Below, in pieces: positions 4,222 through 20,640 of a DNA stretch of 64,000 nt. How positions within the stretch are numbered: the stretch's first letter is position 1; each line of letters starts with the position of its first letter. The notes under the pieces are model-generated. The model saw only the letters and a list, made by a program, of their open reading frames with translations. It was not told where the DNA came from and made no database searches. Where the stretch lies: IMG/VR virus record IMGVR_UViG_3300036770_005357; one strand, written 5' to 3'. This stretch comes from a virus. Its lineage: Duplodnaviria; Caudoviricetes. A program made the translations under genes and the position numbers.

Positions 4222-5052
4222 ATGACTATTACAACACAAGGCGGCATCTATAAAATTGTCAACAAACTAAATGGAAAATATTATGTTGGTAGGACCAAAA
4301 ACTTTAAGAAGAGATGGTATGATCACAGGAAACGATTGCGGAAAAACTGTCACATAAACTCACATTTACAACGTGCGTGGAACAAAGATGGAGAACATTC
4401 ATTTGAATTTGTAATTACGGAAATTATTGATGTCACAATTTGTCATAAAGAAACCGAACAAAAGTATATAGATCAACTTATTGAAGATCGCAAAAATGGA
4501 ATCGACAATAGTTATAACATTAGTGAAAGTTCAGATGGACCAACATTATTCGGTAACAAAAATGGAATGTTTGGTAGAAAACACAGCAATGAGTCCAAAA
4601 ATTTAATGTCTAACAATAGACGAGGTAAAAAACATACCGAAGAAACTAAAAAAATGTGGAGTGAACGTCGAAAAGGAAAACCTTCGTGGAACAAGGGGAT
4701 GGAAATGTCAGAAGAATATCGTAAAAAATTATCTATTATCAGAAAAGGCAGAAGACATTCTGTAGAGACTAAAAGGAAAATTTCGTTATCTCAACTTAGA
4801 GAAAAAAATCACCGATTTGGCAAGCGACCAACAGAAAATCAAATAAACAAAATGGTTGATGTTATAGTTGATAAAACTATTTACACTTGGAAAAATGACA
4901 AGTTGTTACGTACAGAAAATATGACCCGAAGAGATTTTTATAAAAAATACAACATACCAGCATCCAACATATGTGATCTTATTAAAGGAAAAAGAAAATC
5001 TGTTTATGGATGGTATATTGAAACTAGTTCGCCCAACGGGGTTCTCGTATAA
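4222..5052 (+). mobile_element. Free-standing GIY-YIG homing endonuclease with NUMOD3-like repeats
   Basis: GIYKIVNKLNGKYYVGRT, R..H, F.F..E, YN motifs; MFGRKHSNESK/KKHTEETK/RHSVETK repeats; AT-rich and antisense to neighbours. Confidence 0.92.
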
Positions 5053-10748: not shown

Positions 10749-10840
10749 TTGACCCCACCGGAATTTCTGGTATAGTCTATCCAGATCGGCTGAACAAGCT
10801 AGGATAGGGGACCAACGCCTACCATAATACCGTTAAGGTT
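10749..10840 (+). repeat. Copy A of a plus-strand promoter plus two-hairpin element
   Basis: TTGACC-N16-TATAGT then ccagatcggctgaacaagctaggataggggaccaacgcctacc...cgttaa. Confidence 0.75.
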
Positions 10841-10991
10841 AAAGCTAAACCGCATGGCTTTGCATAGGTTGCGTTCTAGGAGCCAGACCCCTACCGACAC
10901 CCTACCTACGCACCAAAAGTGCGCCTATAGACCGCCTAGGCGCACCGGCAACCGTTCTAGGAGGATCATTTCGTTGAGCTCACCGATATGA

Positions 10992-11264
10992 TCAAACCAG
11001 CATATGGGCTAGTGGATGATAGGATACTTCCTTACGGCTATAAATATTCTTATCATAGTCTGTAGCTTCAATGACGAAAAGACGCTGGGAATACTTAATA
11101 AGACAATAGTTGTACCTAAATAAACTATTCAAATTAAACAACAATTCACCCAACTTAATCTTCACTTCACTATCCTCTACATCACATACACTATGCAAAT
11201 GATCGGTATCATTACGAACACGATCAGTAGATGTAGGATATTTTACAGCCAATATCTTTGTCAT
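10992..11264 (-). CDS. Hypothetical protein
   Basis: 90-aa ORF downstream of the helicase. Confidence 0.5.
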   Translation of the reverse strand: MTKILAVKYPTSTDRVRNDTDHLHSVCDVEDSEVKIKLGELLFNLNSLFRYNYCLIKYSQRLFVIEATDYDKNIYSRKEVSYHPLAHMLV

Positions 11265-11276
11265 ATAATTAATATA

Positions 11277-12650
11277 TTAAATCACCCGAACACTAAATGT
11301 CAAGTCACCATCATTCAACGATTCCAAATTATTAAGCTTGGCTTGAACCCTTCTACAAGCATCTTCCTCAATCGTATTAGCAGCAAATAGTACCTTCTGT
11401 ACACAAGGAGTCTTACCTTCAGCCCTATGAATTCTCCCAAGTGCTTGAAGCATATTGATAGCACTAAAACTAGGACTCAAAATACTATGACGAGGATGAT
11501 TGCCATTCAAGTCATGAAGACTCACACCAGCATTACCCGCTGCCAAATTAGCAATCATAATTCGCTTACGATCCGCTTGAAAATCAGCAATGTCAGCCTG
11601 ACGAGCCTTATCACTCTGTCCACCAACAATACGAGCAACACTCTGACTGTATGTATTGTTTTTACCCAATTGATTAATAATTGCGTCAACAGTATCTGTA
11701 AAATTTACAAATACAACCGGACTGATTCCCTCATCATACAAATCCTTGATCATATCAACCATCGTAGGTACCTTAAGTAACTCAACCTTACGACGAGCCT
11801 TAGTCATAATAGCAAAGTGATGTTCGCTATAATTGGAACTTGACTCTTCAAGTTCAGCCAGTTCTTGTTCCATGATTTCATAGATACGATTGATCTTATC
11901 AGTATTCGTACCCATGTCAAATACATCAGCAATAACCCTATTGTCCGGAAAGATCTTGTCAAACATCTTTCTAGTCATACGGCTAGCCACTTTAAACCGG
12001 TTGAACAGCTTGTCGTGAATATTAGCCATGGCCTCAATCGCTTGACGACTACCAATATCAATTTGATAACCACCAAACCTACCAGTATAAGCACCGCTAT
12101 CAAAGATAAAGCTACGGAAACTCACCAGATTATGAAGCGTCGTAGCAAATCCAAAACTCTTCATCTCCAATGGATTAGTAGCAGCGGTAGCACTCAAAAG
12201 AAGCAGCTTATAGTGGTTCTTCTTGAGAGCAATGAGAAAGTCACTATTCTTGCTATCAAATCCTTTACACTTATGACACTCGTCAATAATGACAAGCGCA
12301 TTCTTGGGAAAGTGGATTTGGTAATCGTCCGGGGTATTGTCTCTACCATTGAGAAAGGAGAGATGTTCAGTATTACCCCGAGTCAATTTCTCAAAGTTTA
12401 TGACGACATGTGCTTTGATACCGAATTCCTTCAGTACATTATGCCAATTGGGAATAACCACTTTGGGACATACAACAACCACAGGGCTATTGAAGTGCTT
12501 GGCGATCCACGCGCCAACATAACTTTTTCCACATCCTGTTTCACTAAGATCTACAGCCGTGCCATTGACATAGAGGCTATCAAGTAGTTTTACTGCATGT
12601 TCCGCTTGAGGACCAATCAGTTTTGAGAAGTCAAATGAAGTAACGCTCAT
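11277..12650 (-). CDS. SF2 (SNF2-like) DNA helicase
   Basis: ETGCGKS Walker A, IIDECH, LSATA, GVSLHD, QALGRIHR motifs. Confidence 0.9.
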   Translation of the reverse strand: MSVTSFDFSKLIGPQAEHAVKLLDSLYVNGTAVDLSETGCGKSYVGAWIAKHFNSPVVVVCPKVVIPNWHNVLKEFGIKAHVVINFEKLTRGNTEHLSFLNGRDNTPDDYQIHFPKNALVIIDECHKCKGFDSKNSDFLIALKKNHYKLLLLSATAATNPLEMKSFGFATTLHNLVSFRSFIFDSGAYTGRFGGYQIDIGSRQAIEAMANIHDKLFNRFKVASRMTRKMFDKIFPDNRVIADVFDMGTNTDKINRIYEIMEQELAELEESSSNYSEHHFAIMTKARRKVELLKVPTMVDMIKDLYDEGISPVVFVNFTDTVDAIINQLGKNNTYSQSVARIVGGQSDKARQADIADFQADRKRIMIANLAAGNAGVSLHDLNGNHPRHSILSPSFSAINMLQALGRIHRAEGKTPCVQKVLFAANTIEEDACRRVQAKLNNLESLNDGDLTFSVRVI

Positions 12651-12768
12651 CGTTTACCTACTGTACCACGGGGTTATAAAAAGTCAAGCCTCCCACGCAA
12701 CTTTTTTCACTTTTCCTCTACTTTTACTCCTCTACTTTTATATATATTAGTAGAGGAAATTATAATAT

Positions 12769-13647
12769 ATGGACAACAATATAAACCAAACTATAATAGA
12801 AAAAGTAGCAATCAAAAGCGTGGCAATATATAAAGCAATAGCTATGTTACCACCACCAGAAATAAAGGACTTATGGGCAGAAAACAATTATACAAAACAG
12901 ACGCAGAACGACTTGAAGCTAGACGCGAAAGACAATTGCGTTACTATGAAAAAAACAAAAACAGAATTAACGCCGGTAGATTGGAAAGATATTACAAATC
13001 AAAACAAGAGCGGGATTTATAAAATAATAAACAAGATTGACGGCAAGTATTATGTAGGTAGAAGTTCCAATATTAAAAAAAGATGGAGATCTCATCGTAA
13101 TCTTTTAAGACAAAACAAACACAGTAATTGTCACCTACAAAGGGCTTGGAATCGTGATGGGGAATCGTCATTTGATTTTATTTTAGTTGAAGAAGTAATA
13201 CCGGATAAAAATATTCTAATAGATGTTGAAACTCGGTACATTAATAAGTTTGTAAATGATAGGAAAAACGGCATTGACGATTGTTACAACTTAAGCTTAA
13301 GTGCGGTTACAGGAAGTGTACCCGGTAATCAACACAGAAAAGGAAAACCTCATTCAATTGAAGATAGATTAAAAATATCTAAGGGACTGTTAGGCAACAC
13401 GAATACTAAAGGTAAATCTATTTCCGAAATACACAGACAAAAAATTATAATGAATGCGCCTAAAGGCAAAAATAATCATGCATTCAATAATAAAATTTAT
13501 AACTTCTTCAACAAAAATACAGGCGAAAGTTTTAGTGGTACACTCAGTGAACTTTTACAAAAAGAAAATATAAAAATAAATTCAGCGTTTCATAGAGTTA
13601 TCCGTGGCGAAAGAAATCATTACAAAGGATGGATATATAAACCCTAG
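12769..13647 (+). mobile_element. GIY-YIG homing endonuclease (probable real start MKKTKTEL near 12946)
   Basis: SGIYKIINKIDGKYYVGRSS; catalytic domain closely resembles the 4222 enzyme. Confidence 0.9.
12873..13025 (+). CDS. Small basic MGRK-type ORF overlapping the GIY-YIG 5' end in another frame
   Basis: Manual translation MGRKQLYKTDAERLEARRERQLRYYEKNKNRINAGRLERYYKSKQERDL*; homolog at 18970. Confidence 0.65.
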
Positions 13648-13653
13648 AATGTC

Positions 13654-13845
13654 TCAATCCTCTGTATCAGCTTTTTCTACAGTGGGAGAGATGATGGGGA
13701 TACGGACAGTGAAGATGATGCGGCTAATTTCGTTGAAGACGATCTTGACAAAAGTGACCGTCAACAAATAAATCAACAATACAAAGGCAATTGCCATACA
13801 GTAATTGCTGATACTAGATGTAATATGTTTAAAAAACTCAGTCAT
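13654..13845 (-). CDS. Small membrane protein
   Basis: Hydrophobic central helix. Confidence 0.5.
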   Translation of the reverse strand: MTEFFKHITSSISNYCMAIAFVLLIYLLTVTFVKIVFNEISRIIFTVRIPIISPTVEKADTED

Positions 13846-13872
13846 ATTAATTATGAATAGTGTTCTTGATTA

Positions 13873-14157
13873 TCAAAACCAGTAATACATTTCTATAGCT
13901 TCAGAACAGCGTGCTTTTGACCACAAAGCAGCAGACTTTTTCGCTATTGATTTGGTATTGTCACTTTCATCATATTCAAAATAATTCCGTTTACCACCGG
14001 GAGAAAATGCAACATATTGCATGTTATCAACATCGTGCCAATACTTTCCTTTAGCAAGTTGTTTTGCTTGTTTTACTTCAACCTTAGTAGCAAATTTACC
14101 ACTATATGGATTATATGGATTTATACAACCCGCTATAAACTTCTGTCGGCTAGTCAT
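13873..14157 (-). CDS. Hypothetical protein
   Basis: 94-aa ORF. Confidence 0.55.
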   Translation of the reverse strand: MTSRQKFIAGCINPYNPYSGKFATKVEVKQAKQLAKGKYWHDVDNMQYVAFSPGGKRNYFEYDESDNTKSIAKKSAALWSKARCSEAIEMYYWF

Positions 14158-14192
14158 ATCTTTTTATAGAATAAGGGGTATCCGCCTAAATG

Positions 14193-14519
14193 TCAAGCAA
14201 CCTTTGCTTCAATCTCAGCCAGTTTCTCAGCGGGAATCAAGCTAATAATTTGACGGGAATACTTAGGAAGCTTACGAAAAGCAATAACAAGTTGTTTAGG
14301 ACTAAGTGTGCGACCCTTGTTAATCTGTTCAGCAAACGAACTTAGTATAAAAGCATCAGTACCGTTGTATCCAACGCCATTGTCGTGTCCCGTGTTTTGA
14401 GCAATCTGCTCGTCAGTCGTCTGCCTCTCCCAGAGCTTCACGATAGCCCTCGTAGCCCAAGTCGGATTGGAGGAGAGCTGCTGCTTCACATATTCAACCA
14501 CTTTCGGATTCAGTTTCAT
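14193..14519 (-). CDS. Conserved phage hypothetical protein
   Basis: EQ...NGVGY...DAFILSSFAEQ...LSPKQ pattern; own promoter. Confidence 0.65.
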   Translation of the reverse strand: MKLNPKVVEYVKQQLSSNPTWATRAIVKLWERQTTDEQIAQNTGHDNGVGYNGTDAFILSSFAEQINKGRTLSPKQLVIAFRKLPKYSRQIISLIPAEKLAEIEAKVA

Positions 14520-14578
14520 CGTGGAAACAGTCTACAGGCTTCTAGGGAGAAGTCAAGCGGTAAAAACAAAAAAACTAA

Positions 14579-14605
14579 CAGAAAATTAATCCGTTAGCTT
14601 TTACA
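14579..14605 (-). terminator. Terminator hairpin, duplicated at about 15120-15146
   Basis: AGCTAACGG-attaatttt-CTGTTAG followed by a T tract on the minus strand. Confidence 0.65.
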
Positions 14606-14624
14606 AAAATATGTTTATAACTTG

Positions 14625-15008
14625 TTATTTACCAAATATTCCAATTTTTCCCATTTGTGATTGAAGAACTGGATTTATTTTCTTCAAAACATCTTTGCCC
14701 GTTGGAATGACTCCACCCCACGACCCTGAATATTTCACTTTTACACGATCATTTCCATCCGGTTCAATTTTTATCATAAAATCTGGGGATTTTTTGGATG
14801 TTATTATGATAGTATTTATGGCAGTATCAATACGCACAAGTAAGTCTCTGTCTATGAGAAGAATGTTACCTTTAAGATCATAAAACAATCTGTCAATTAT
14901 AGATTCAATGTTTGATCCACCAGAAGTACTACGAGTGTCTGATGTATCATCTTCATTTAGGTTTAGAAGACATTCTTTGATTAACATTTTTAGTTGGGTT
15001 CTAGTCAT
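14625..15008 (-). CDS. Late-type protein with MTRTQLKMLIKE tag
   Basis: AT-rich ORF, TATTTATA motif upstream (15031-15038). Confidence 0.65.
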   Translation of the reverse strand: MTRTQLKMLIKECLLNLNEDDTSDTRSTSGGSNIESIIDRLFYDLKGNILLIDRDLLVRIDTAINTIIITSKKSPDFMIKIEPDGNDRVKVKYSGSWGGVIPTGKDVLKKINPVLQSQMGKIGIFGK

Positions 15009-15180
15009 AATTTATATATTGGTTATTTGTTATAAATATACGAAAAAAAAAAATAATAAAAAAATTTACTCGTACAGTTTACTAGCTTTTTTGGGGAAGT
15101 CAAGCGGTAAAAACAAAAAAGCTAACAGAAAATTAATCCGTTAGCTTTGTAATTAATTATAATGATTTAAGTTTAATCCA

Positions 15181-15465
15181 CTACCCGAACAGATCGAAAT
15201 CATCAAAATTATCAACATACCAACTAAAATGACGGGCAAAAGAACGAAAAATGTCAGCCGCTTTGGTTTTTGCTTTTTGAGCTAGATCGGAAAATTGTTG
15301 TTTTTTGACAGGATCGTTTGTTTTCTTACTCAATTCACGATATTCATCTTCCTTTTTTTTCAAAGTAGAATAAGCTAATTTTGCTTTGTTAATCGTGGAT
15401 TTGTCATGATCACTATTTTCAATAATTACTTCTTTGATAAGTTCTTTAAGTTCTTTTTTAGTCAT
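15181..15465 (-). CDS. Late-type protein with MTKKELKELIKE tag
   Basis: TATTTATA motif at 15470-15477. Confidence 0.7.
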   Translation of the reverse strand: MTKKELKELIKEVIIENSDHDKSTINKAKLAYSTLKKKEDEYRELSKKTNDPVKKQQFSDLAQKAKTKAADIFRSFARHFSWYVDNFDDFDLFG

Positions 15466-15520
15466 ATACTATAAATATATGAGAAAAAAATAATTACAGA
15501 TTATAAAACTTTTATAGATA

Positions 15521-15742
15521 TTATTTTGCGTAATGTATTTTATTAGTGCAATTACCTTTATGTATTAATGTCCAGCCACCTATTTTACCGTTATAAGTCT
15601 GAATATACTCACAACCATCTATAACTTTATTTATATTGGTAGGTATCATCATAAATATAATAACAGAAATAATAATAATGCCCAAGTAAATCAAAGTTTC
15701 ATGCGTTATAAATGCTTTGTTTTTCATAGTTGCTTCTTTCAT
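15521..15742 (-). CDS. Small membrane protein, paralog of 40963..41157
   Basis: TM helix then IDGCEYI...LIHKGNCTNKIH, matching IDNCQYI...LTHKGNCTNNIH. Confidence 0.65.
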   Translation of the reverse strand: MKEATMKNKAFITHETLIYLGIIIISVIIFMMIPTNINKVIDGCEYIQTYNGKIGGWTLIHKGNCTNKIHYAK

Positions 15743-15800
15743 CACGAGAACAGTCTACAGTTTTCTAGGGAGAAGTCAAGCCCCCTTTTTTGGGGGAAAT

Positions 15801-15878
15801 TGGTGGGCCTTGAAGGATTTGAACCATCACTCTCAGCAATTATGAGTTGCGTGTTTTAACCAATTAAACTAAAGGCCC
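15801..15878 (-). tRNA. tRNA with CAT anticodon, probably Ile2 (or Met)
   Basis: GGGCCTT/AAGGCCC acceptor, CTCATAA loop, TTCAAAT T loop, ACCA end; own TTGACA-N17-TACAAT promoter. The acceptor resembles Ile2 tRNAs. Confidence 0.85.
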
Positions 15879-16083
15879 GTTATCTAAAAACTATTGTATC
15901 AAACAACTATGCTTTTGTCAAATACTCAAAGTTCGGTATAACAAACACTCACTGTACGACAATCGCCTTTGTAACGCTTGTACGCTTTTTGTTCTGCTTG
16001 ATTATGGTTGGCAGCCTTAATGTAGCCAACTTCTACGCCGTTGTAATAAACAATAAATGTCTTCATATCTTTATCAGTAGTTA

Positions 16084-16281
16084 TCAATAATCATATCCAC
16101 GCTCAATAGCATCAGCACAACTATTGCAAATAGCATACTGAGGCTGTATGTTCACCATACGATCACATCGCTTACACCGCTTAGCAACATTCGTACGCTG
16201 ACACTTATGATAGTAATCAACCATCTCAGGCTCATCCATGTTGCTCCAAGTGCCATAATTGTCGTCACAGTAGGTTCTCAT
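16084..16281 (-). CDS. Small Zn-ribbon protein
   Basis: CKRC...CNSC. Confidence 0.6.
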   Translation of the reverse strand: MRTYCDDNYGTWSNMDEPEMVDYYHKCQRTNVAKRCKRCDRMVNIQPQYAICNSCADAIERGYDY

Positions 16282-16336
16282 TGTTTTAATAGTCTATCAG
16301 CTTTTTTTAATTTGTCAACAGCTTTTTTTAGAGAAA

Positions 16337-16436
16337 GTATCAATTCGGTTGCATCACACCTAATTTATTCTGCAATGCTTTGAGGACAGGCTCTCCATCC
16401 TCATCCGCTAGGCTACGGATTCCACCGAATTGACAC
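16337..16436 (-). ncRNA. Stand-alone cloverleaf-like ncRNA, 100 nt
   Basis: 13-bp closing stem GTGTCAATTCGGT/ACCGAATTGATAC with three hairpins; promoter TTGACA-N16-TATTTT directly upstream; no ORF. Confidence 0.7.
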
Positions 16437-16464
16437 CACCAAAATATCAGACTTTTTTAATCTG

Positions 16465-16695
16465 TCAAGCCTTCGGACACTGTTGAAACTCAAGACTCGG
16501 CGCAATCTTCTCCATCACCCTCATCGCTTCGTCCCGACTGTACACCTGAAAAAACAACTCTCCATCTCCACGATACAACCTCCACACCAAACGCTCACGG
16601 TTGTACATCACATACCCAACAATCACCCCTTGGTTGACCAGCGCATCCACCGGTTTTCCGTCAATCTCAGTCACCGTCCAGTTCATCGTTTTCAT
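16465..16695 (-). CDS. Hypothetical early protein
   Basis: ORF after a promoter copy. Confidence 0.6.
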   Translation of the reverse strand: MKTMNWTVTEIDGKPVDALVNQGVIVGYVMYNRERLVWRLYRGDGELFFQVYSRDEAMRVMEKIAPSLEFQQCPKA

Positions 16696-16729
16696 TACGG
16701 GAAACAGTCTACCAGAAATCTTCAGTCTG

Positions 16730-17005
16730 TCAAGCCCTCACCGTCAACTCGTTCAGCTGTTGAATGGTAGCCCCGCTCATCTCAACCGCCCAATGAACAT
16801 GGTTCATTGCCTCCTTCTTCTTGATTGAATGACCCAGAAACTTAGCACCGTCACCAGTTCCATGATACATTCGCCACCAGTTCTTGCCGTGCTTAGTATC
16901 AACAGGCTTATCAATCATACCCACAGCCTCACCCGCTTGATTGAAAGCGACATGAAGGTTAGGAATCGTGCTCTTGATCTTCTTCCAAGTGATGTAAGTA
17001 ATCAT
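16730..17005 (-). CDS. Hypothetical early protein
   Basis: ORF after a promoter copy. Confidence 0.6.
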   Translation of the reverse strand: MITYITWKKIKSTIPNLHVAFNQAGEAVGMIDKPVDTKHGKNWWRMYHGTGDGAKFLGHSIKKKEAMNHVHWAVEMSGATIQQLNELTVRA

Positions 17006-17415
17006 ATTACGGGATACAGTGTACCAGCTTTTTTTAAGCTGTCAAGCGCTTTTCGGGCTGATAAGTGACGATAGGCGCTGGTTGGATATTCATCGCCGTC
17101 ATCTTGTCAACATAATCACACCACAACAGATAGTTTCGCTGGCCAGACTTCTTGGTTTTGTTCTTCTTCATATTACGGGTAAGAGTGTATCAGGTTTTTT
17201 TCGGTTGTCAAGCCCCTTCAGTCCTCGTCAATCATGGAGTCGTCCACCTCAAAGCTGCCCTCAATGTAGCTGCCATCCTCAGGCAATGGAGCACCCTTAG
17301 CCTCATGTATTGCTTCAGCTACACTGTCAGCCTGCACTTCTACATAACCATACATCTGCCAAACAACAGGTACACGATAGGTTTTCATTGCGGTCATATC
17401 TTTATTTATTTAATT

Positions 17416-17691
17416 TCAGAACCAAAACTCAATACCAATAGTGTCACCCTTGCTATCAAACTGTAATACACCATCCACAACATTACCCACAATATCAAGA
17501 GAAAAACTCAAATCACCCTCCAATACCAACTTGCTATCAGTAATCTCAAAATCCTCAATCTCATATCCATCAGTATCACCATTAAAGTAATACATAACAG
17601 ACGACGGCATATCATTGCCAAATGTATCAACACACTCATTCAAATACTCACGAATCGTCATAGTAACAGTCTCAGTTTTCATTGCATGCAT
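17416..17691 (-). CDS. Acidic hypothetical protein
   Basis: ORF after the promoter at 17716-17743. Confidence 0.6.
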   Translation of the reverse strand: MHAMKTETVTMTIREYLNECVDTFGNDMPSSVMYYFNGDTDGYEIEDFEITDSKLVLEGDLSFSLDIVGNVVDGVLQFDSKGDTIGIEFWF

Positions 17692-17731
17692 ATCTTTATT
17701 TATTTAACGGTTAATAGTCTATCAGCTTTTT

Positions 17732-17965
17732 TTAATCTGTCAAGCCCCCAGTCATCACCTCAATGTCCATCTTCGTCTCACCCTGTAGTGTTTGCCAACG
17801 ATACCCCGACAAATACTCGTTCACCTGCTCCTGCGTCATATCCACAGCCTCCACCCGACGAGATTGATAGGTAGCACCCTCAAAGTAATGAGGACGAATG
17901 TCACGCCCATACCACTTGTCAGCCCTGCCCCGATCCCACGGTCCTCCATGTCGTTCGTTCATCAT
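17732..17965 (-). CDS. Conserved phage hypothetical (HGGPWDRG.AD..YGR)
   Basis: Motif; ATG after a promoter copy. Confidence 0.6.
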   Translation of the reverse strand: MMNERHGGPWDRGRADKWYGRDIRPHYFEGATYQSRRVEAVDMTQEQVNEYLSGYRWQTLQGETKMDIEVMTGGLTD

Positions 17966-18137
17966 GTACACACTCTACACTGCCCACCGAAGAAGTCAAG
18001 CTCCTCCAACCACTTTTTTTAAACTTCTTCCTTTATCGTTAAATTTACCCCACCCCACCCAATACCCTACCGAGACACCATCCAACAAACCAAAGAGGGC
18101 CTGGCGCAATCCTGGCGCTGCCAGGCCCCCGTCAACC

Positions 18138-18443
18138 TCAGACACCAGCCAGACTTTCCAGCTGGGTGTACTCCACACCCTCCTTGGGCGTCCAGTAGAG
18201 ATCCCGCTCGATCTTGAGGCCAAACGGTCCACGAACCGCCTCCAGACCCTCTAGAGACTCAATGCCACCCCATTCCACGCAACCCATACCCAGATCGGCG
18301 TAACCGTAAAGGATGCCATCCTCCATACCAGTGATCAACCAGGTGGCACGACCCCAAGGGGTGAACAGCTTGCAGATCGGATTCGTGTTGTTGTAGCCAG
18401 CCTTGTTGAGCTTGGCAGTCAGTTGTTTCGTCAGTAGCTTCAT
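18138..18443 (-). CDS. DUF2958-like protein
   Basis: KLFTPWGRATWLIT...YGYADLGMGCVEWG...IERDLYW; ATG at 18443 follows a promoter. Confidence 0.7.
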   Translation of the reverse strand: MKLLTKQLTAKLNKAGYNNTNPICKLFTPWGRATWLITGMEDGILYGYADLGMGCVEWGGIESLEGLEAVRGPFGLKIERDLYWTPKEGVEYTQLESLAGV

Positions 18444-18477
18444 CGTGAGACAGACTCTAACAGCTTTTTTTAAAGTG

Positions 18478-18696
18478 TCAAGCCTCCACCAGTTCAACGG
18501 CAGTCAGCTTACCCTGAGCGATTCGGTAGTTCACCGGATCCTCGCTCTCAGCAGCCCGCACATCCTCAACCATCCACCAACGCATCCGAGTCTGCATCGC
18601 ACTCTCAAACGCTTCAACCTCGGTAGCAAACCGAAGACCATTGGTGGCCCACTTACCCTCTACCTTCACTTCCGGCTTCCATGACTTGTTGTTCAT
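18478..18696 (-). CDS. Hypothetical early protein
   Basis: First cassette of the minus-strand block. Confidence 0.6.
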   Translation of the reverse strand: MNNKSWKPEVKVEGKWATNGLRFATEVEAFESAMQTRMRWWMVEDVRAAESEDPVNYRIAQGKLTAVELVEA

Positions 18697-18769
18697 ACGG
18701 GACACACTCTACACTGCCGACCGAGGAAGTCAAGCCCCCCTTGAACTTAAAAAAAGTGCTAGGTAGCGC

Positions 18770-18866
18770 TTGACTTCGGCACTGGCCCTGGTAGAGTGTA
18801 TCCAGATCGGCTGACCAAGCCAGGGTAGGGGACCAAGGGCTACCCGAATAGCGTTAACCTTAACGC
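18770..18866 (+). repeat. Copy B of the promoter plus two-hairpin element
   Basis: TTGACT-N16-TAGAGT then ccagatcggctgaccaagccagggtaggggaccaagggctaccc...cgttaa. Confidence 0.75.
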
Positions 18867-18901
18867 ACTTTTTTAACTTTTCTTCGTCGTTTTATTCCAC
18901 G

Positions 18902-19783
18902 ATGAACTATTTATTAATTGACAAAGATATACTTATGATCAACAATGAAATATTAGAGGAGTACTTTATATGGGACGAAAGAAGCTTAACAGAACACCAG
19001 ATGAATTGCGAGAACAGCGTAAACTCAGAGATAAACGATACTACGAACAACACAAAGATAAACTCAACGCAAATAGATTGGAGAGATATTACCGATCCAA
19101 AGTTAAGAAAGAAACTACGAAAGAAAGCTTGGCGGAAAGCTAATGAAGAAAAATTAAAAAAACAAAATAAAGCTTACTACGAAGCTAATAAAGATAAGAA
19201 CCGAGAATATCGTAAAGATTATAATAAAGCTTATAAAAAGGCTAATAAAGAAAAACAAAAAGCTTATAGTAAAGCTTATCGTGATGCTAACAGAGATAAA
19301 AGAAAAACATATCTTGAAGCTAATAAAGATAAACGAAACAAACATCGTAGAAATCGTAAAAAAACCGATATACAATATAAACTATCTAACAACTTGCGAT
19401 CCAGATTAAGAGATGCTATTAGATGTAATTACAAATCAGGCAGTGCAGTAAAAGATTTGGGTTGTAGTATTGAAGAACTTAAAGTTTATTTAGAAAGTAA
19501 GTTTCTACCGGGAATGACTTGGGACAATTATGGATTGTACGGATGGCATATAGATCACATAAAACCATTAGCTAGTTTTGATTTAAGTGATCGTAACCAA
19601 CTATTAGAAGCTTGTCACTACACAAACCTCCAACCGCTTTGGGCCAACGACAACCTATCCAAAGGCGATAAATTTATAAAAAATCCGCTTCAACCGCTTG
19701 ACTTCGGCACTAGTTCTGGTAAAGTAGTCCCAACAGCTGACAAAGCGAGGGTAGGGTACCAGGGGCTGCGTTTATTCCGTTAA
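18902..19783 (+). mobile_element. HNH homing endonuclease with basic helical repeats
   Basis: KAY(Y/R)EANK(D/E)K repeats; MTWDNYG..GWHIDHIKPLASF...HYTNLQPLWANDNLSKG. Confidence 0.9.
18970..19143 (+). CDS. Small basic MGRK-type ORF overlapping the HNH 5' end
   Basis: MGRKKLNRTPDELREQRKLRDKRYYEQHKDKLNANRLERYYRSKVKKETTKESLAES*. Confidence 0.65.
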   Translation: MGRKKLNRTPDELREQRKLRDKRYYEQHKDKLNANRLERYYRSKVKKETTKESLAES

Positions 19784-19790
19784 CGATAAA
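19698..19790 (+). repeat. Copy C (diverged) of the promoter plus two-hairpin element
   Basis: cgcTTGACTtcggcact shared with copy B, N16-TAAAGT, gctgacaaagc, gggtagggtacca, cgttaa. Confidence 0.7.
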
Positions 19791-20640
19791 GTATAAAAAG
19801 CGCACATGCTCTGGGCTTTAACGATAAAGTCCCAGTTAACGATAAAGCTAAAATTGATAAGTGAACCTAATGACCCCGCGTTCATTAGACAGTCTCATCA
19901 CTCAGTAGGTCGTCTACTGACCCGACCACATTAGGCGCTCTAATGGGTTTTTGCGCTGTCAGCACATAAGAACGACTTATCATAACTTACGAAAATTAGG
20001 ATACCTTATTGAAAAATAAATGTACTTGACAAAGAGAGTGAGATGTGTATACATTTGCGCGGGAAACACAAAAAAAGAAAATCAAGCACACATATGCACA
20101 TATATTATAACCGCCATAAAAAAAAGCGATTTGTGCTCGCCAAGCGTGGTTTATAATGCTCTATGCTTATACTTTATTTAATATTTGCATAACTACACTG
20201 TGATTTATTATAAAAGTATGTACATATACACATATGTTTATTGTTATCAAATGATAGTAGATATAATAAAATTGACATATTTATAATGGTGATATAGTAT
20301 GAGAACTATGATTAATTTTATAAAGGAAGTGGTTGTGAATGTGTTTATGATGTTTATGGTCATATACTTTGTGTTAGCGATGATAGTGTTTTTGAGTGTG
20401 ATGAGTATTGTATTTTTTGCAGCGATGATAGTAGAAACTACACTAGATACATTGAGTCACATGGTAAAGGGTAGTAATATTACAATAAGGAGGGGCTTAT
20501 AAGGCAAAAAGTGATGTACCTGTTTTTAAGCAAAAAAAGCGCTGGGGGGAGGTTAATGAACGAAAAAAGCGCGGGGGGGAGGTTACAAATGGCCTATGTG
20601 GGTGGGGGGTGCTTAGTTATAGGGACTATGGTATGGGGGG
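19778..20640. other. Candidate replication origin / large non-coding switch region
   Basis: TTAACGATAAAG x3, several hairpins, G-tract repeats, gene-orientation and skew switch. Confidence 0.45.

What the first reader, a model, noticed from the sequence alone, without database searches (positions are those of the whole stretch)
10749..19790. Three copies of a divergent promoter driving a conserved two-hairpin non-coding element
Copies A (10749), B (18770) and C (19698) share a promoter followed by ccagatc-GGCT-GAmcA-AGCy, then GG.TAG-GGGACCA..-CTACC, then cgttaa. Stem changes between A and B keep the pairing and the loops stay conserved. A and B each sit back-to-back with the first promoter of a minus-strand cassette block, and C abuts the origin-like region. 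Candidate roles are a small RNA, a replication primer or R-loop RNA, or a block-boundary element.
Basis: partly seen in the sequence, partly recalled or inferred. Interest (0 to 1): 0.72.

Follow-up and report, generated by a model that had tools for sequence, protein, structure and literature searches.

The report
Conserved leader RNA at phage early promoters
The three copies are real members of a large, uncatalogued family of short folded RNAs made straight after strong host-type promoters in the early region of big uncultured lake phages; what the RNA does is untested, and acting on the polymerase that makes it is only the leading guess.

Summary
Observation confirmed and much extended. Copies A (10749-10845), B (18770-18874) and C (19698-19791) share a sigma70-type promoter, a start at a conserved A, a short hairpin, an almost invariant box AGGGTAGGGGACC, a second weaker hairpin, and tandem CGTTAA-like hexamers. 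The same unit occurs in about 100 distinct versions in phage contigs from metagenomes. No Rfam family matches it, and it is essentially absent from 185,000 cellular genomes. Hairpin 1 is proven by covariation (seven different stems). G-U pairs place the fold on the transcribed sense strand. Hairpin 2 is supported only by conserved complementarity. The copies sit at fixed syntenic posts. A converges on the end of a helicase operon. B and C belong to a tandem promoter array that diverges from gene F12 and fires into conserved AT-rich non-coding DNA; an HNH homing endonuclease has been inserted between them. Relatives also carry copies between tandem promoters in front of early genes. So neutral duplication or assembly artefact is excluded. 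Function is inferred only. My ranking is a put/nut-like leader that modifies RNA polymerase (about 0.3), a free small RNA (about 0.22), or an origin-priming R-loop RNA (about 0.18).

The parts
10749..10776 (+). Copy A promoter (-35 TTGACC 10749-10754, 16-nt spacer, TG-extended -10 TATAGT 10771-10776); inferred start at A10783
   Evidence: same geometry in about 85 of 107 related copies
10783..10845 (+). Copy A element: hairpin 1 GGCT(10788-10791)/GAACA/AGCT(10797-10800); G-box AGGATAGGGGACC 10801-10813; 3' partner CCTACC 10818-10823; hexamer module CGTTAAGGTTAAAG 10831-10844
   Evidence: 75.4 bits; fold
10846..10991 (+). Non-coding tail downstream of A. It overlaps, in antisense, the 3' UTR of the convergent 90-aa gene (10992-11264, minus). 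It contains CCCCTACC / CCCTACCTA, complementary to the G-box, and a 9-bp hairpin GTGCGCCTA...TAGGCGCAC
   Evidence: 91-99% identical in L033/L045/L058; core shared with L002
18770..18797 (+). Copy B promoter (-35 TTGACT, -10 TAGAGT); inferred start A18804; back-to-back with the promoter of gene F12 (18478-18696, minus)
   Evidence: F12 is the divergent neighbour of 20 related copies
18804..18874 (+). Copy B element: hairpin 1 18809-18812/GACCA/18818-18821; G-box 18822-18834; hairpin 2 GGGTAG 18823-18828 / CTACCC 18840-18845; hairpin 3 GCGTTA 18851-18856 / TAACGC 18861-18866 followed by T6 18869-18874 (weak terminator-like)
   Evidence: (82.4 bits)
18902..19783 (+). HNH homing-endonuclease ORF inserted between array members B and C. 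It begins with the cassette-type start TTCCACGATGAA. A basic MGRK reading frame starts at 18970. Its last ~28 codons and its stop codon lie inside copy C
   Evidence: phrog_1035 endonuclease VII, phrog_28061; same placement of an HNH gene between two elements in L013
19698..19725 (+). Copy C promoter (-35 TTGACT, -10 TAAAGT); inferred start A19732
19732..19791 (+). Copy C element ('AACAG' type): hairpin 1 GCT 19736-19738/GACAA/AGC 19744-19746; G-box AGGGTAGGGTACC 19748-19760; weak partner CTGC 19766-19769; hexamer module CGTTAACGATAAAG 19778-19791
   Evidence: (75.2 bits); orthologous type in L008/L014 1144+
19780..19847 (+). Three exact TTAACGATAAAG repeats (19780, 19818, 19836). The first is the hexamer module of C
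   Evidence: 26 near-matches against 11.6 expected; 4 exact, the fourth at 18031-18042 minus
19850..20320 (+). Non-coding region fed by B and C: three hairpins at 19868-19948, then AT-rich palindrome-rich DNA. Region 20068-20215 is conserved (~70%) behind the arrays of relatives
18028..18075 (-). Decayed fourth copy in the sense orientation of the early cassettes: G-rich remnant (TAGGGTATTGGGTGGGGTGGGG) + TTTAACGATAAAGG + A-rich spacer + cassette promoter
   Evidence: not found by the covariance model at E<=1

Best explanation
The element is a cis-acting leader RNA. Host RNA polymerase starts at a strong early promoter and within the first ~50 nt transcribes hairpin 1, whose loop is GNRA-like in most copies, and then the invariant G-box AGGGUAGGGGACC, which mostly pairs with a downstream CCUAC/CCUGC.

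I infer that this folded RNA stays with the polymerase that made it and changes its elongation behaviour, giving processive read-through of terminators and of Rho. It could do so alone, as HK022 put does, or together with a factor bound to the RNA or to the hexamer module, as at lambda nut. Selected early transcripts could then cross DNA that is untranslated or that carries terminators:
- the 0.3-0.9 kb non-coding leader into the long plus-strand block (B, C);
- the antisense side of the helicase operon (A);
- rows of single-gene cassettes (relatives).

Shown: the family, the promoter linkage, RNA-level selection on hairpin 1, sense-strand polarity, and the fixed syntenic posts. Inferred: transcription itself, any contact with polymerase, and any effect on termination.
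For: 1. The fold is selected on the sense strand. Pair 12-20 is CG in 61 and GC in 11 of 72 copies, never unpaired. G-U occurs in 33 (pair 10-22) and 34 (pair 27-43) copies. Divergent copies use seven different stems. 98% have a hairpin of at least 3 bp and 79% of at least 4 bp, against 35% and 10.5% after shuffling.
2. The element is tied to a promoter. About 85 of 107 distinct copies have TTGnnn-16/18-TAnnnT placed so that the transcript starts at the conserved A. In the E-type, and probably in remote relatives, the element lies inside the leader, at about +44 in L035. This tolerance of position matches putR and nutR, and does not fit a 5'-end stabiliser.
3. There is no general terminator. 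In the commonest context the transcript must run on through a second promoter and an ORF. That favours a cis role over a discrete small-RNA gene.
4. A 13-nt box stays invariant across phages of very different composition. This is expected for contact with a conserved machine such as polymerase.
5. There are several copies per genome, and all lie in a 10-15 kb early region at the heads of transcription units and at divergent control regions, as putL/putR and nutL/nutR do.
6. Architecture matches putL: about 70 nt, two stem-loops just after the promoter, and a -10-like word at +23..+28 (PMC9378689). Here NAGGGT lies at +18..+23 and TAGGGN at +23..+28, with A and T invariant.
7. The commonest hairpin-1 loops are GANNA pentaloops, including GACAA. 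P22 boxB uses GACAA, and phi21 boxB uses a UAAC-type loop that is also seen here (PMC12550061).
Against:
- Early genes here are one-promoter, near-leaderless units without Shine-Dalgarno sequences. Read-through transcripts may therefore not be translated, which removes the obvious benefit in the cassette context.
- The window's early block has no excess of intrinsic terminators: 8 found against 7.1 expected.
- Copy A and 25 other copies point into a convergent gene, where read-through has no evident product.
- Tandem arrays of 2-3 units are redundant for a cis antiterminator.
- Hairpin 2 shows no covariation, and RNAalifold keeps only hairpin 1.
- No arginine-rich N-like protein family was seen in the loci held.
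- There is no sequence relation to the put-like leaders noted elsewhere or to the T7 A1-A2 leader.
- The hexamer module recurs as DNA repeats outside transcribed copies, which looks like a DNA-binding site.
Confidence: 0.3

Rival explanations
1. A free-standing, very abundant early small RNA of about 45-70 nt that acts in trans, for example as a decoy or sponge for a host protein or RNA. Several strong promoters would supply the dose. The 3' end would be made by weak termination, or by RNase cutting in the A/U-rich hexamer module.
For: The function would be independent of context. This fits the three unrelated downstream settings: co-directional 37, convergent 26, no ORF within 600 nt 28. It also fits the tandem arrays. 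B and about a fifth of relatives have a T-run after hairpin 3. The invariant 13-mer could be a seed or a binding site.
Against: Most copies have no terminator, and in class I the unit is welded at fixed distance to a second promoter and an ORF. No complementary target was found in the window other than A's own tail. The G-box is half buried in hairpin 2. The element is absent from cellular genomes, so it is not an obvious mimic of a host RNA or a CRISPR repeat.
Confidence: 0.22
2. An origin-activating or primer RNA, as at T4 oriF/oriG/oriE, T7's primary origin or ColE1. The G-rich RNA would form a persistent R-loop on the C-rich template just after the promoter. The following AT-rich hexamer module and repeats would be the unwinding and loading zone, rich in GTT, which is the T4 primase site (from my own knowledge).
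For: C and the arrays in relatives fire into 300-900 nt of conserved AT-rich, repeat- and palindrome-rich non-coding DNA at the point where gene direction and G/C skew switch. Copies bracket a helicase operon. Its first gene, P107, has a fold seen inside an SF3-helicase protein, TM 0.79. The hexamer module behaves like iterons. The tandem promoters resemble T7.
Against: A covarying hairpin with G-U pairs means the RNA folds on itself rather than staying hybridised. The two copies flanking the helicase operon point inward, which is the wrong way for bidirectional firing. Three to six origins within 15 kb, many directly in front of ordinary early genes, is hard to justify. The skew switch is equally explained by gene orientation.
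Confidence: 0.18
3. A boundary or insulator unit. A strong non-coding promoter faces away from a cassette block, and its polymerase pauses on the hairpin/G-box. This shields the first near-leaderless cassette promoter from incoming transcription, or boosts it through divergent supercoiling.
For: 41 copies are divergent from the next gene, 20 of them from F12. The tail copy of the helicase operon always sits between that operon's terminator and the first cassette promoter. A and B are 34-36 bp back-to-back with cassette promoters.
Against: 44 copies are co-directional with the upstream gene, and 37 lead a co-directional ORF. An insulator does not need a 13-nt invariant box or a covarying hairpin.
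Confidence: 0.1
4. A repeated regulatory cassette kept alike by recombination (PeSL-like), or a DNA operator for a phage regulator, with no role for the RNA.
For: The phage is built of shuffling promoter cassettes (Arbiol et al. 2010, PMC2839356, abstract only). The G-box and hexamer module are conserved as sequence without covariation. Truncated units keep the promoter plus hexamer module only.
Against: Compensatory and G-U changes in hairpin 1 occur across phages that share little else. Orientation relative to the promoter is fixed. Conservation extends to contigs of 55% G+C and to MAG contigs from other habitats.
Confidence: 0.07

Closest known systems
HK022 putL/putR (RNA-only processive antiterminators)
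   Same: Phage-specific. Several copies at the heads of early transcription units. About 50-70 nt with stem-loops made immediately after, or some way after, a sigma70 promoter. A -10-like word lies near +23 (PMC9378689).
   Different: No sequence or covariance-model relation was tested against put itself. The stems here are much shorter (3-4 bp and 4-7 bp), and no triplex or bulged stem I is evident. Many copies face convergent genes. Antitermination is untested.
Lambdoid nut sites (boxA + boxB bound by N and Nus factors)
   Same: A short hairpin with a GNRA-like pentaloop. GACAA is the P22 boxB loop, and UAAC-type loops as in phi21 also occur (PMC12550061). A conserved linear word sits next to it. 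The hexamer module of remote copies reads CUUUAAC, like the rrn/T7 boxA core CUCUUUAAC (for T7; rrn from my own knowledge).
   Different: The stem is 3-4 bp rather than 5. The loop is not fixed: AAC, AUNAAC and GUGACA also occur. The order of parts is hairpin first. No N-like arginine-rich protein was found. The linear box is G-rich and unlike boxA.
Tandem host-type early promoters A1/A2/A3 of phage T7 with structured inter-promoter leaders
   Same: Strong sigma70 promoters 85-210 nt apart, each followed by conserved non-coding RNA and an A-rich run before the next -35. These lead into an untranslated leader.
   Different: There is no sequence or structure match: model R1 gives 1.8 bits on T7 400-1000. 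The function of the T7 segments is itself unknown.
T4 origins oriF/oriG (promoter + unwinding element, R-loop primer) and oriE (early promoter + iterons)
   Same: Promoter followed by AT-rich DNA and short repeats. Several per genome. T4-like lifestyle features are present: homing endonucleases, tRNA and small-RNA genes, promoter cassettes. This comparison rests on my own knowledge of T4.
   Different: T4 origin transcripts have no conserved folded RNA. Here many copies are followed at once by a promoter and a gene, or by a convergent gene.
PeSL cassettes of T4-type phages (PMC2839356, PMC4122927)
   Same: Repeated promoter-plus-stem-loop units between small early genes in plastic regions.
   Different: In a PeSL the stem-loop is a terminator before the promoter. 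Here the structures follow the promoter, are transcribed from it, and are conserved far beyond one genome.

Membership tests
HK022 put RNA | Two long stem-loops (~70 nt) with bulges, transcribed downstream of early promoters | tested here: inconclusive
   Promoter-proximal position met. Hairpin 1 proven, hairpin 2 only by complementarity. Stems are much shorter than those described for put.
HK022 put RNA | Suppresses termination and pausing in cis without a protein factor, through the beta' zinc-binding domain | not testable with these tools
   Needs transcription assays.
Lambdoid nut site | boxB hairpin: 5-bp stem with a GNRA-like penta- or hexaloop | tested here: inconclusive
   GANNA loops in about 75% of copies, but stems are 3-4 bp and other loops occur.
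Lambdoid nut site | boxA (CGCUCUUA-like) next to boxB | tested here: not met
   No such word in A, B or C. Only CUUUAAC/CGUUAAC in the hexamer module, downstream of the hairpins.
Lambdoid nut site | A cognate small N protein with an arginine-rich motif encoded in the early region | tested here: inconclusive
   No conserved Arg-rich family among 1283 ORFs of the window and loci, but only parts of the genomes are held.
Any Rfam 15 family | Match at or near the gathering score | tested here: not met
   Only tRNA in the window at gathering. Nothing better than E=0.57 on the three copies with relaxed thresholds.
T4-type R-loop origin | Promoter followed by a DNA-unwinding (AT-rich) element | tested here: inconclusive
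   Met for C and for the arrays in relatives (G+C 0.25-0.35 over 300 nt). Not met for class I copies (G+C ~0.48, promoter and ORF follow).
T4-type R-loop origin | Persistent RNA-DNA hybrid used as leading-strand primer | not testable with these tools
   Needs hybrid and nascent-strand mapping.
Intrinsically terminated small-RNA gene | Promoter, short RNA, then a G+C-rich hairpin with a U-tract | tested here: not met
   Only B has a weak version: 6 bp, 3 G-C pairs, T6. A, C and most relatives have none.
PeSL cassette | Terminator stem-loop upstream of an early promoter, conserved mainly within a genome | tested here: not met
   The structures lie downstream of the promoter and are conserved across about 100 contigs.

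The most novel reading that the evidence does not exclude
This is a new class of RNA-only polymerase-modifying leader, unrelated in sequence to put. Large freshwater phages would use it to mark a subset of host-polymerase transcripts. Its attached hexamer or iteron module would couple that early transcription to firing of the neighbouring replication region. One element would then serve both transcription control and origin activation.
Probability: 0.12. Interest if true: 0.85.

Novelty: new variant of a known kind. Interest (0 to 1): 0.6.

Why it matters
Promoter-proximal RNAs that reprogram bacterial RNA polymerase are known from very few systems (put, nut, EAR, rrn leaders). This is a compact module of about 50 nt with an invariant 13-mer. 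It is present in about 100 variants in abundant lake phages, always behind consensus sigma70 promoters, so it can be tested directly with E. coli-type polymerase in vitro.

If it modifies elongation, it is a new and very small tool for read-through control. If instead it is a small RNA or a primer, it identifies one of the most heavily promoted early products of these phages, or it marks their origins. In any case it gives a sequence signature (model R1) for finding the early control regions of an uncultured phage group.

Tried and rejected
- Near and distant BLAST of the region against 50,697 phage records: no match. The helicase is only 29% identical to a Micrococcus phage.
- Rfam at gathering and relaxed thresholds: nothing.
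- Whole genome of the window: not held.
- CRISPR-repeat or host-RNA mimic: a scan of 185,579 species genomes gave two hits, both true copies on MAG contigs that look like phage DNA. No arrays and no host homologue were found.
- N-like partner: no arginine-rich family. The basic MGRK frame after B looks like the repeat-rich N-terminus of the homing endonuclease, read in another frame, and not like an N protein.
- Partner search through P107, the gene most often behind the element: no Pfam hit and one PHROG of unknown function. The model is confident (pLDDT 88), but no solved fold stands out: Foldseek E>1 and VIA Z<=3.9. The only lead is a domain inside an SF3-helicase protein.
- Helicase as a UvsW-like R-loop helicase: it matches only SNF2/Rad54-type chains, and weakly.
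- Relation to the T7 A1-A2 leader noted earlier in this scan: none.
- Homing endonucleases depending on A's transcript: the GIY-YIG gene at 12769 has its own AT-rich promoter-like site.
- G-quadruplex: A lacks four G-tracts.
- 5'-end stabiliser: 5-6 unpaired nucleotides precede hairpin 1, and E-type copies sit about 44 nt into the transcript.

Full report
**What is in the window.** The window is part of a large, novel phage. There is no nucleotide match in 50,697 phage records. PHROG hits are to helicase, ligase, homing endonucleases and virion proteins. Related contigs of 105-115 kb are rated only 34-36% complete. Bases 2-19.7 kb carry a minus-strand block of small genes. Each gene has its own sigma70-type promoter placed about 10 nt before the ATG, with no Shine-Dalgarno sequence. 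From 20 kb onward the genes run on the plus strand, and G/C skew flips there.

**The observation.** Copies A, B and C are as described.
- A 26-nt degenerate core hits exactly these three places, allowing three mismatches, with 0.00 expected by chance.
- Each copy has TTGAC(C/T), a 16-nt spacer and a TG-extended TAnAGT. A conserved A lies 7 nt further on.
- Then follow a short hairpin, the box AGG(G/A)TAGGG(G/T)ACC, a partner CCTACC / CTACCC / CTGC, and CGTTAA-type hexamers.
- A and B are 34-36 bp back-to-back with minus-strand cassette promoters.
The loops differ (GAACA, GACCA, GACAA). The A/B stem change is one-sided. C has a different 5' end and almost no hairpin 2.

**A large family.**
- The core pattern finds the unit in IMG/VR contigs and in 85 metagenome contigs, giving 72 distinct copies. 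Judged by the sample names, most of these are from lakes and rivers.
- A covariance model built from them (R1) recovers about 35 further divergent copies in the same loci, and only A, B and C in the window.
- Within long contigs the copies are confined to 10-15 kb: G004 at 69.5-83 kb of 115 kb, G002 at 0.7-11.4 kb of 105 kb.
- A scan of one genome for each of 185,579 prokaryote species gave two hits. Both are genuine copies on short MAG contigs. The element is therefore phage-borne and does not copy a host RNA.
- Rfam has nothing like it.

**Structure.**
- Hairpin 1 is proven. In the 72-copy alignment, pair 12-20 is C-G 61 times and G-C 11 times, and never unpaired. Pair 10-22 alternates between G-U and G-C.
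- Divergent copies use GCUG/CAGC, GCCG/CGGC, ACCG/CGGU, GCCG/CGGU and GGU/ACC.
- 98% of copies have a hairpin of at least 3 bp abutting the G-box, and 79% one of at least 4 bp, against 35% and 10.5% after shuffling.
- Frequent G-U pairs would be C-A on the other strand, so the fold is on the sense strand, meaning the transcript.
- Loops are mostly GANNA. That was partly imposed by my search pattern, but it is also seen in model-found copies. AAC, AUNAAC, GUGACA and GUAAA also occur.
- The 13-nt G-box is nearly invariant even in copies found without constraining it.
- Its GUAG core faces CUAC (49 copies) or CUGC (24 copies) 5-16 nt downstream in 75% of copies, against 24% after shuffling. The alignment shows 80% pairing against 21-41% when the partner is slid. 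There is no two-sided change, and RNAalifold keeps only hairpin 1. Hairpin 2 is therefore likely but not proven.
- The third module reads better as two or three tandem hexamers (CGTTAA, CGATAA, CATTAA, CGTTAG) than as a hairpin. A keeps the repeat but not the pairing. Exact TTAACGATAAAG recurs three times after C and once on the minus strand at 18031.

**Contexts.** Of about 100 distinct copies, 37 lead a co-directional ORF, 26 face a convergent gene, and 28 have no ORF within 600 nt. Four fixed posts emerge.
1. *Class I.* Terminator, promoter 1, element, A-rich spacer, promoter 2, near-leaderless ORF, always at the same spacing. This sits in front of three ORF families (P107, F23, F20). It includes the most remote relatives (L030, L104, L106).
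2. *Tail of the helicase operon.* The operon is P107-P66-SNF2-type helicase-P90. A copy points back into P90 in the window (copy A) and in L002, L014, L026, L047, L063, L079, L081, L086 and L109. In five of these loci a second copy heads the operon, so it is bracketed by inward-facing units.
3. *Tandem arrays.* Two or three promoter units, 85-210 nt apart, diverge from gene F12 (20 copies). They are followed by 300-900 nt of AT-rich, palindrome-rich DNA that is conserved without coding, and then by a long co-directional block. B is the first member of such an array and C the last. An HNH homing endonuclease has been inserted between them, as in L013, and its reading frame simply runs on into C.
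4. *Truncated units.* These keep only the promoter and the hexamer module.

In E-type copies the element lies about 44 nt into the transcript. In remote relatives (L030, L031, L044) no promoter sits directly upstream, and a candidate promoter lies roughly 45-60 nt further up.

The window lacks posts (1) and the operon-head copy. It does keep a decayed class-I remnant at 18028-18075 on the minus strand. Orthologous placement across diverged phages excludes neutral duplication and assembly artefact.

**What it does.** Three points favour a cis-acting leader.
- The RNA is selected to fold.
- It is made from the first bases of a strong early transcript, or a little further in.
- In the commonest and most widely conserved setting it has no terminator and runs on into the next unit.

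The best-known class with this anatomy is the processive antitermination site. putL of HK022 is a two-stem RNA of about 70 nt made just after pL, with a -10-like word at +23..+28 (PMC9378689). Here NAGGGT and TAGGGN occupy +18..+28, with invariant A and T. boxB of P22 has the same GACAA loop, and phi21 a UAAC-type loop (PMC12550061). Such a function would also make sense of transcripts that must cross long untranslated DNA (B/C) or run antisense (A), which are normally prey to Rho. I put this at about 0.3.

Several facts weaken it.
- Read-through RNA may not be translatable in a near-leaderless cassette system.
- The window's early block has no excess of intrinsic terminators.
- Tandem arrays are redundant for this purpose.
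- No N-like protein was found.

The rivals:
- A free small RNA (0.22) explains the indifference to context. It lacks a 3'-end signal except in B and about a fifth of relatives.
- An origin-priming R-loop RNA (0.18) fits C, the iteron-like hexamers, the AT-rich region, and the neighbouring helicase operon, whose first protein resembles a domain of an SF3-helicase protein. It fits badly with a self-folded RNA and with inward-facing copies.
- Boundary or insulator roles (0.1) and pure DNA or recombination roles (0.07) are less likely.

**Comparison with known systems.** The element is not a member of any Rfam family. It fails the boxA criterion for nut sites. It differs from put in stem length, and it has no relation to the T7 A1-A2 leader, although the tandem-promoter layout is similar. 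I class it as a new variant of the known kind 'promoter-proximal structured leader RNA of phage early transcripts'.

**Earlier notes of this scan** (AI notes, used as leads only):
- They describe the same phage as a large freshwater phage with promoter-driven small RNAs.
- They note the HNH gene between B and C.
- They note the origin-like region after C.
- They note put-like leaders in other phages.

I checked the second and third in part, and I tested the T7 lead, which was negative.

Noticed in passing
window 12873-13022 and 18970-19143 (+): The same basic MGRKKLNRTPDE... reading frame overlaps the starts of two unrelated homing endonucleases (GIY-YIG 12769-13647, HNH 18902-19783) in another frame. 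Its RxYY..K repeats continue in the main HNH frame, so a frameshift, programmed or by error, within A-rich runs seems likelier than a separate gene.
   Followed up: partly
window 20068-20215; L074 782-929, L071, L048, L062: AT-rich non-coding DNA full of CATATG / TGTACA / TACGTA palindromes and the run ATAAAAAAAGCACAAAATGCT. It is conserved at ~70% behind the promoter arrays of several phages. It may be an origin or a dense operator region.
   Followed up: partly
window 18095-18140 (-); L001 1320-1375; L002 11290-11330; window 10925-10955: A recurrent 3'-UTR word (GCCAG.ACGCGCCAG ... TATAGGCGC-TTTTG) sits between stop codons and terminators of early genes. It occurs in both orientations next to class II copies.
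   Followed up: no
window 10784-10787, 18805-18808 and most relatives: GATC lies at +2..+5 of the predicted transcript in the 'AGATCGG' type. The other type has CAGCTG at the same place. A methylation-sensitive start is conceivable.
   Followed up: no
L079, L109, L026, L086, L014: The operon P107-P66-SNF2-type helicase-P90 is bracketed by two inward-facing elements. P107 (window 14193-14519, minus) is an all-helical protein (pLDDT 88). Its only fold relatives are uncharacterised proteins and a domain of an SF3-helicase protein.
   Followed up: partly
L110 (Oscillospiraceae MAG contig) and L111 (Melainabacteria MAG contig): True copies of the element on contigs binned into bacterial MAGs, one apparently not from fresh water. 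These are either mis-binned phage DNA or a hint at hosts and at a wider range of the family.
   Followed up: no
window 14570-14602 and 15118-15148 (-): Two near-identical 12-13-bp terminator hairpins (AAAGCTAACGGATTAATTTTCTGTTAGCTTT + T-run) lie just upstream of two cassette promoters. They are the only PeSL-like (terminator-then-promoter) units seen in the block.
   Followed up: no
window 4222-5052, 12769-13647, 18902-19783 (+): All three homing-endonuclease genes in the early region lie on the strand opposite to the early cassettes.
   Followed up: no
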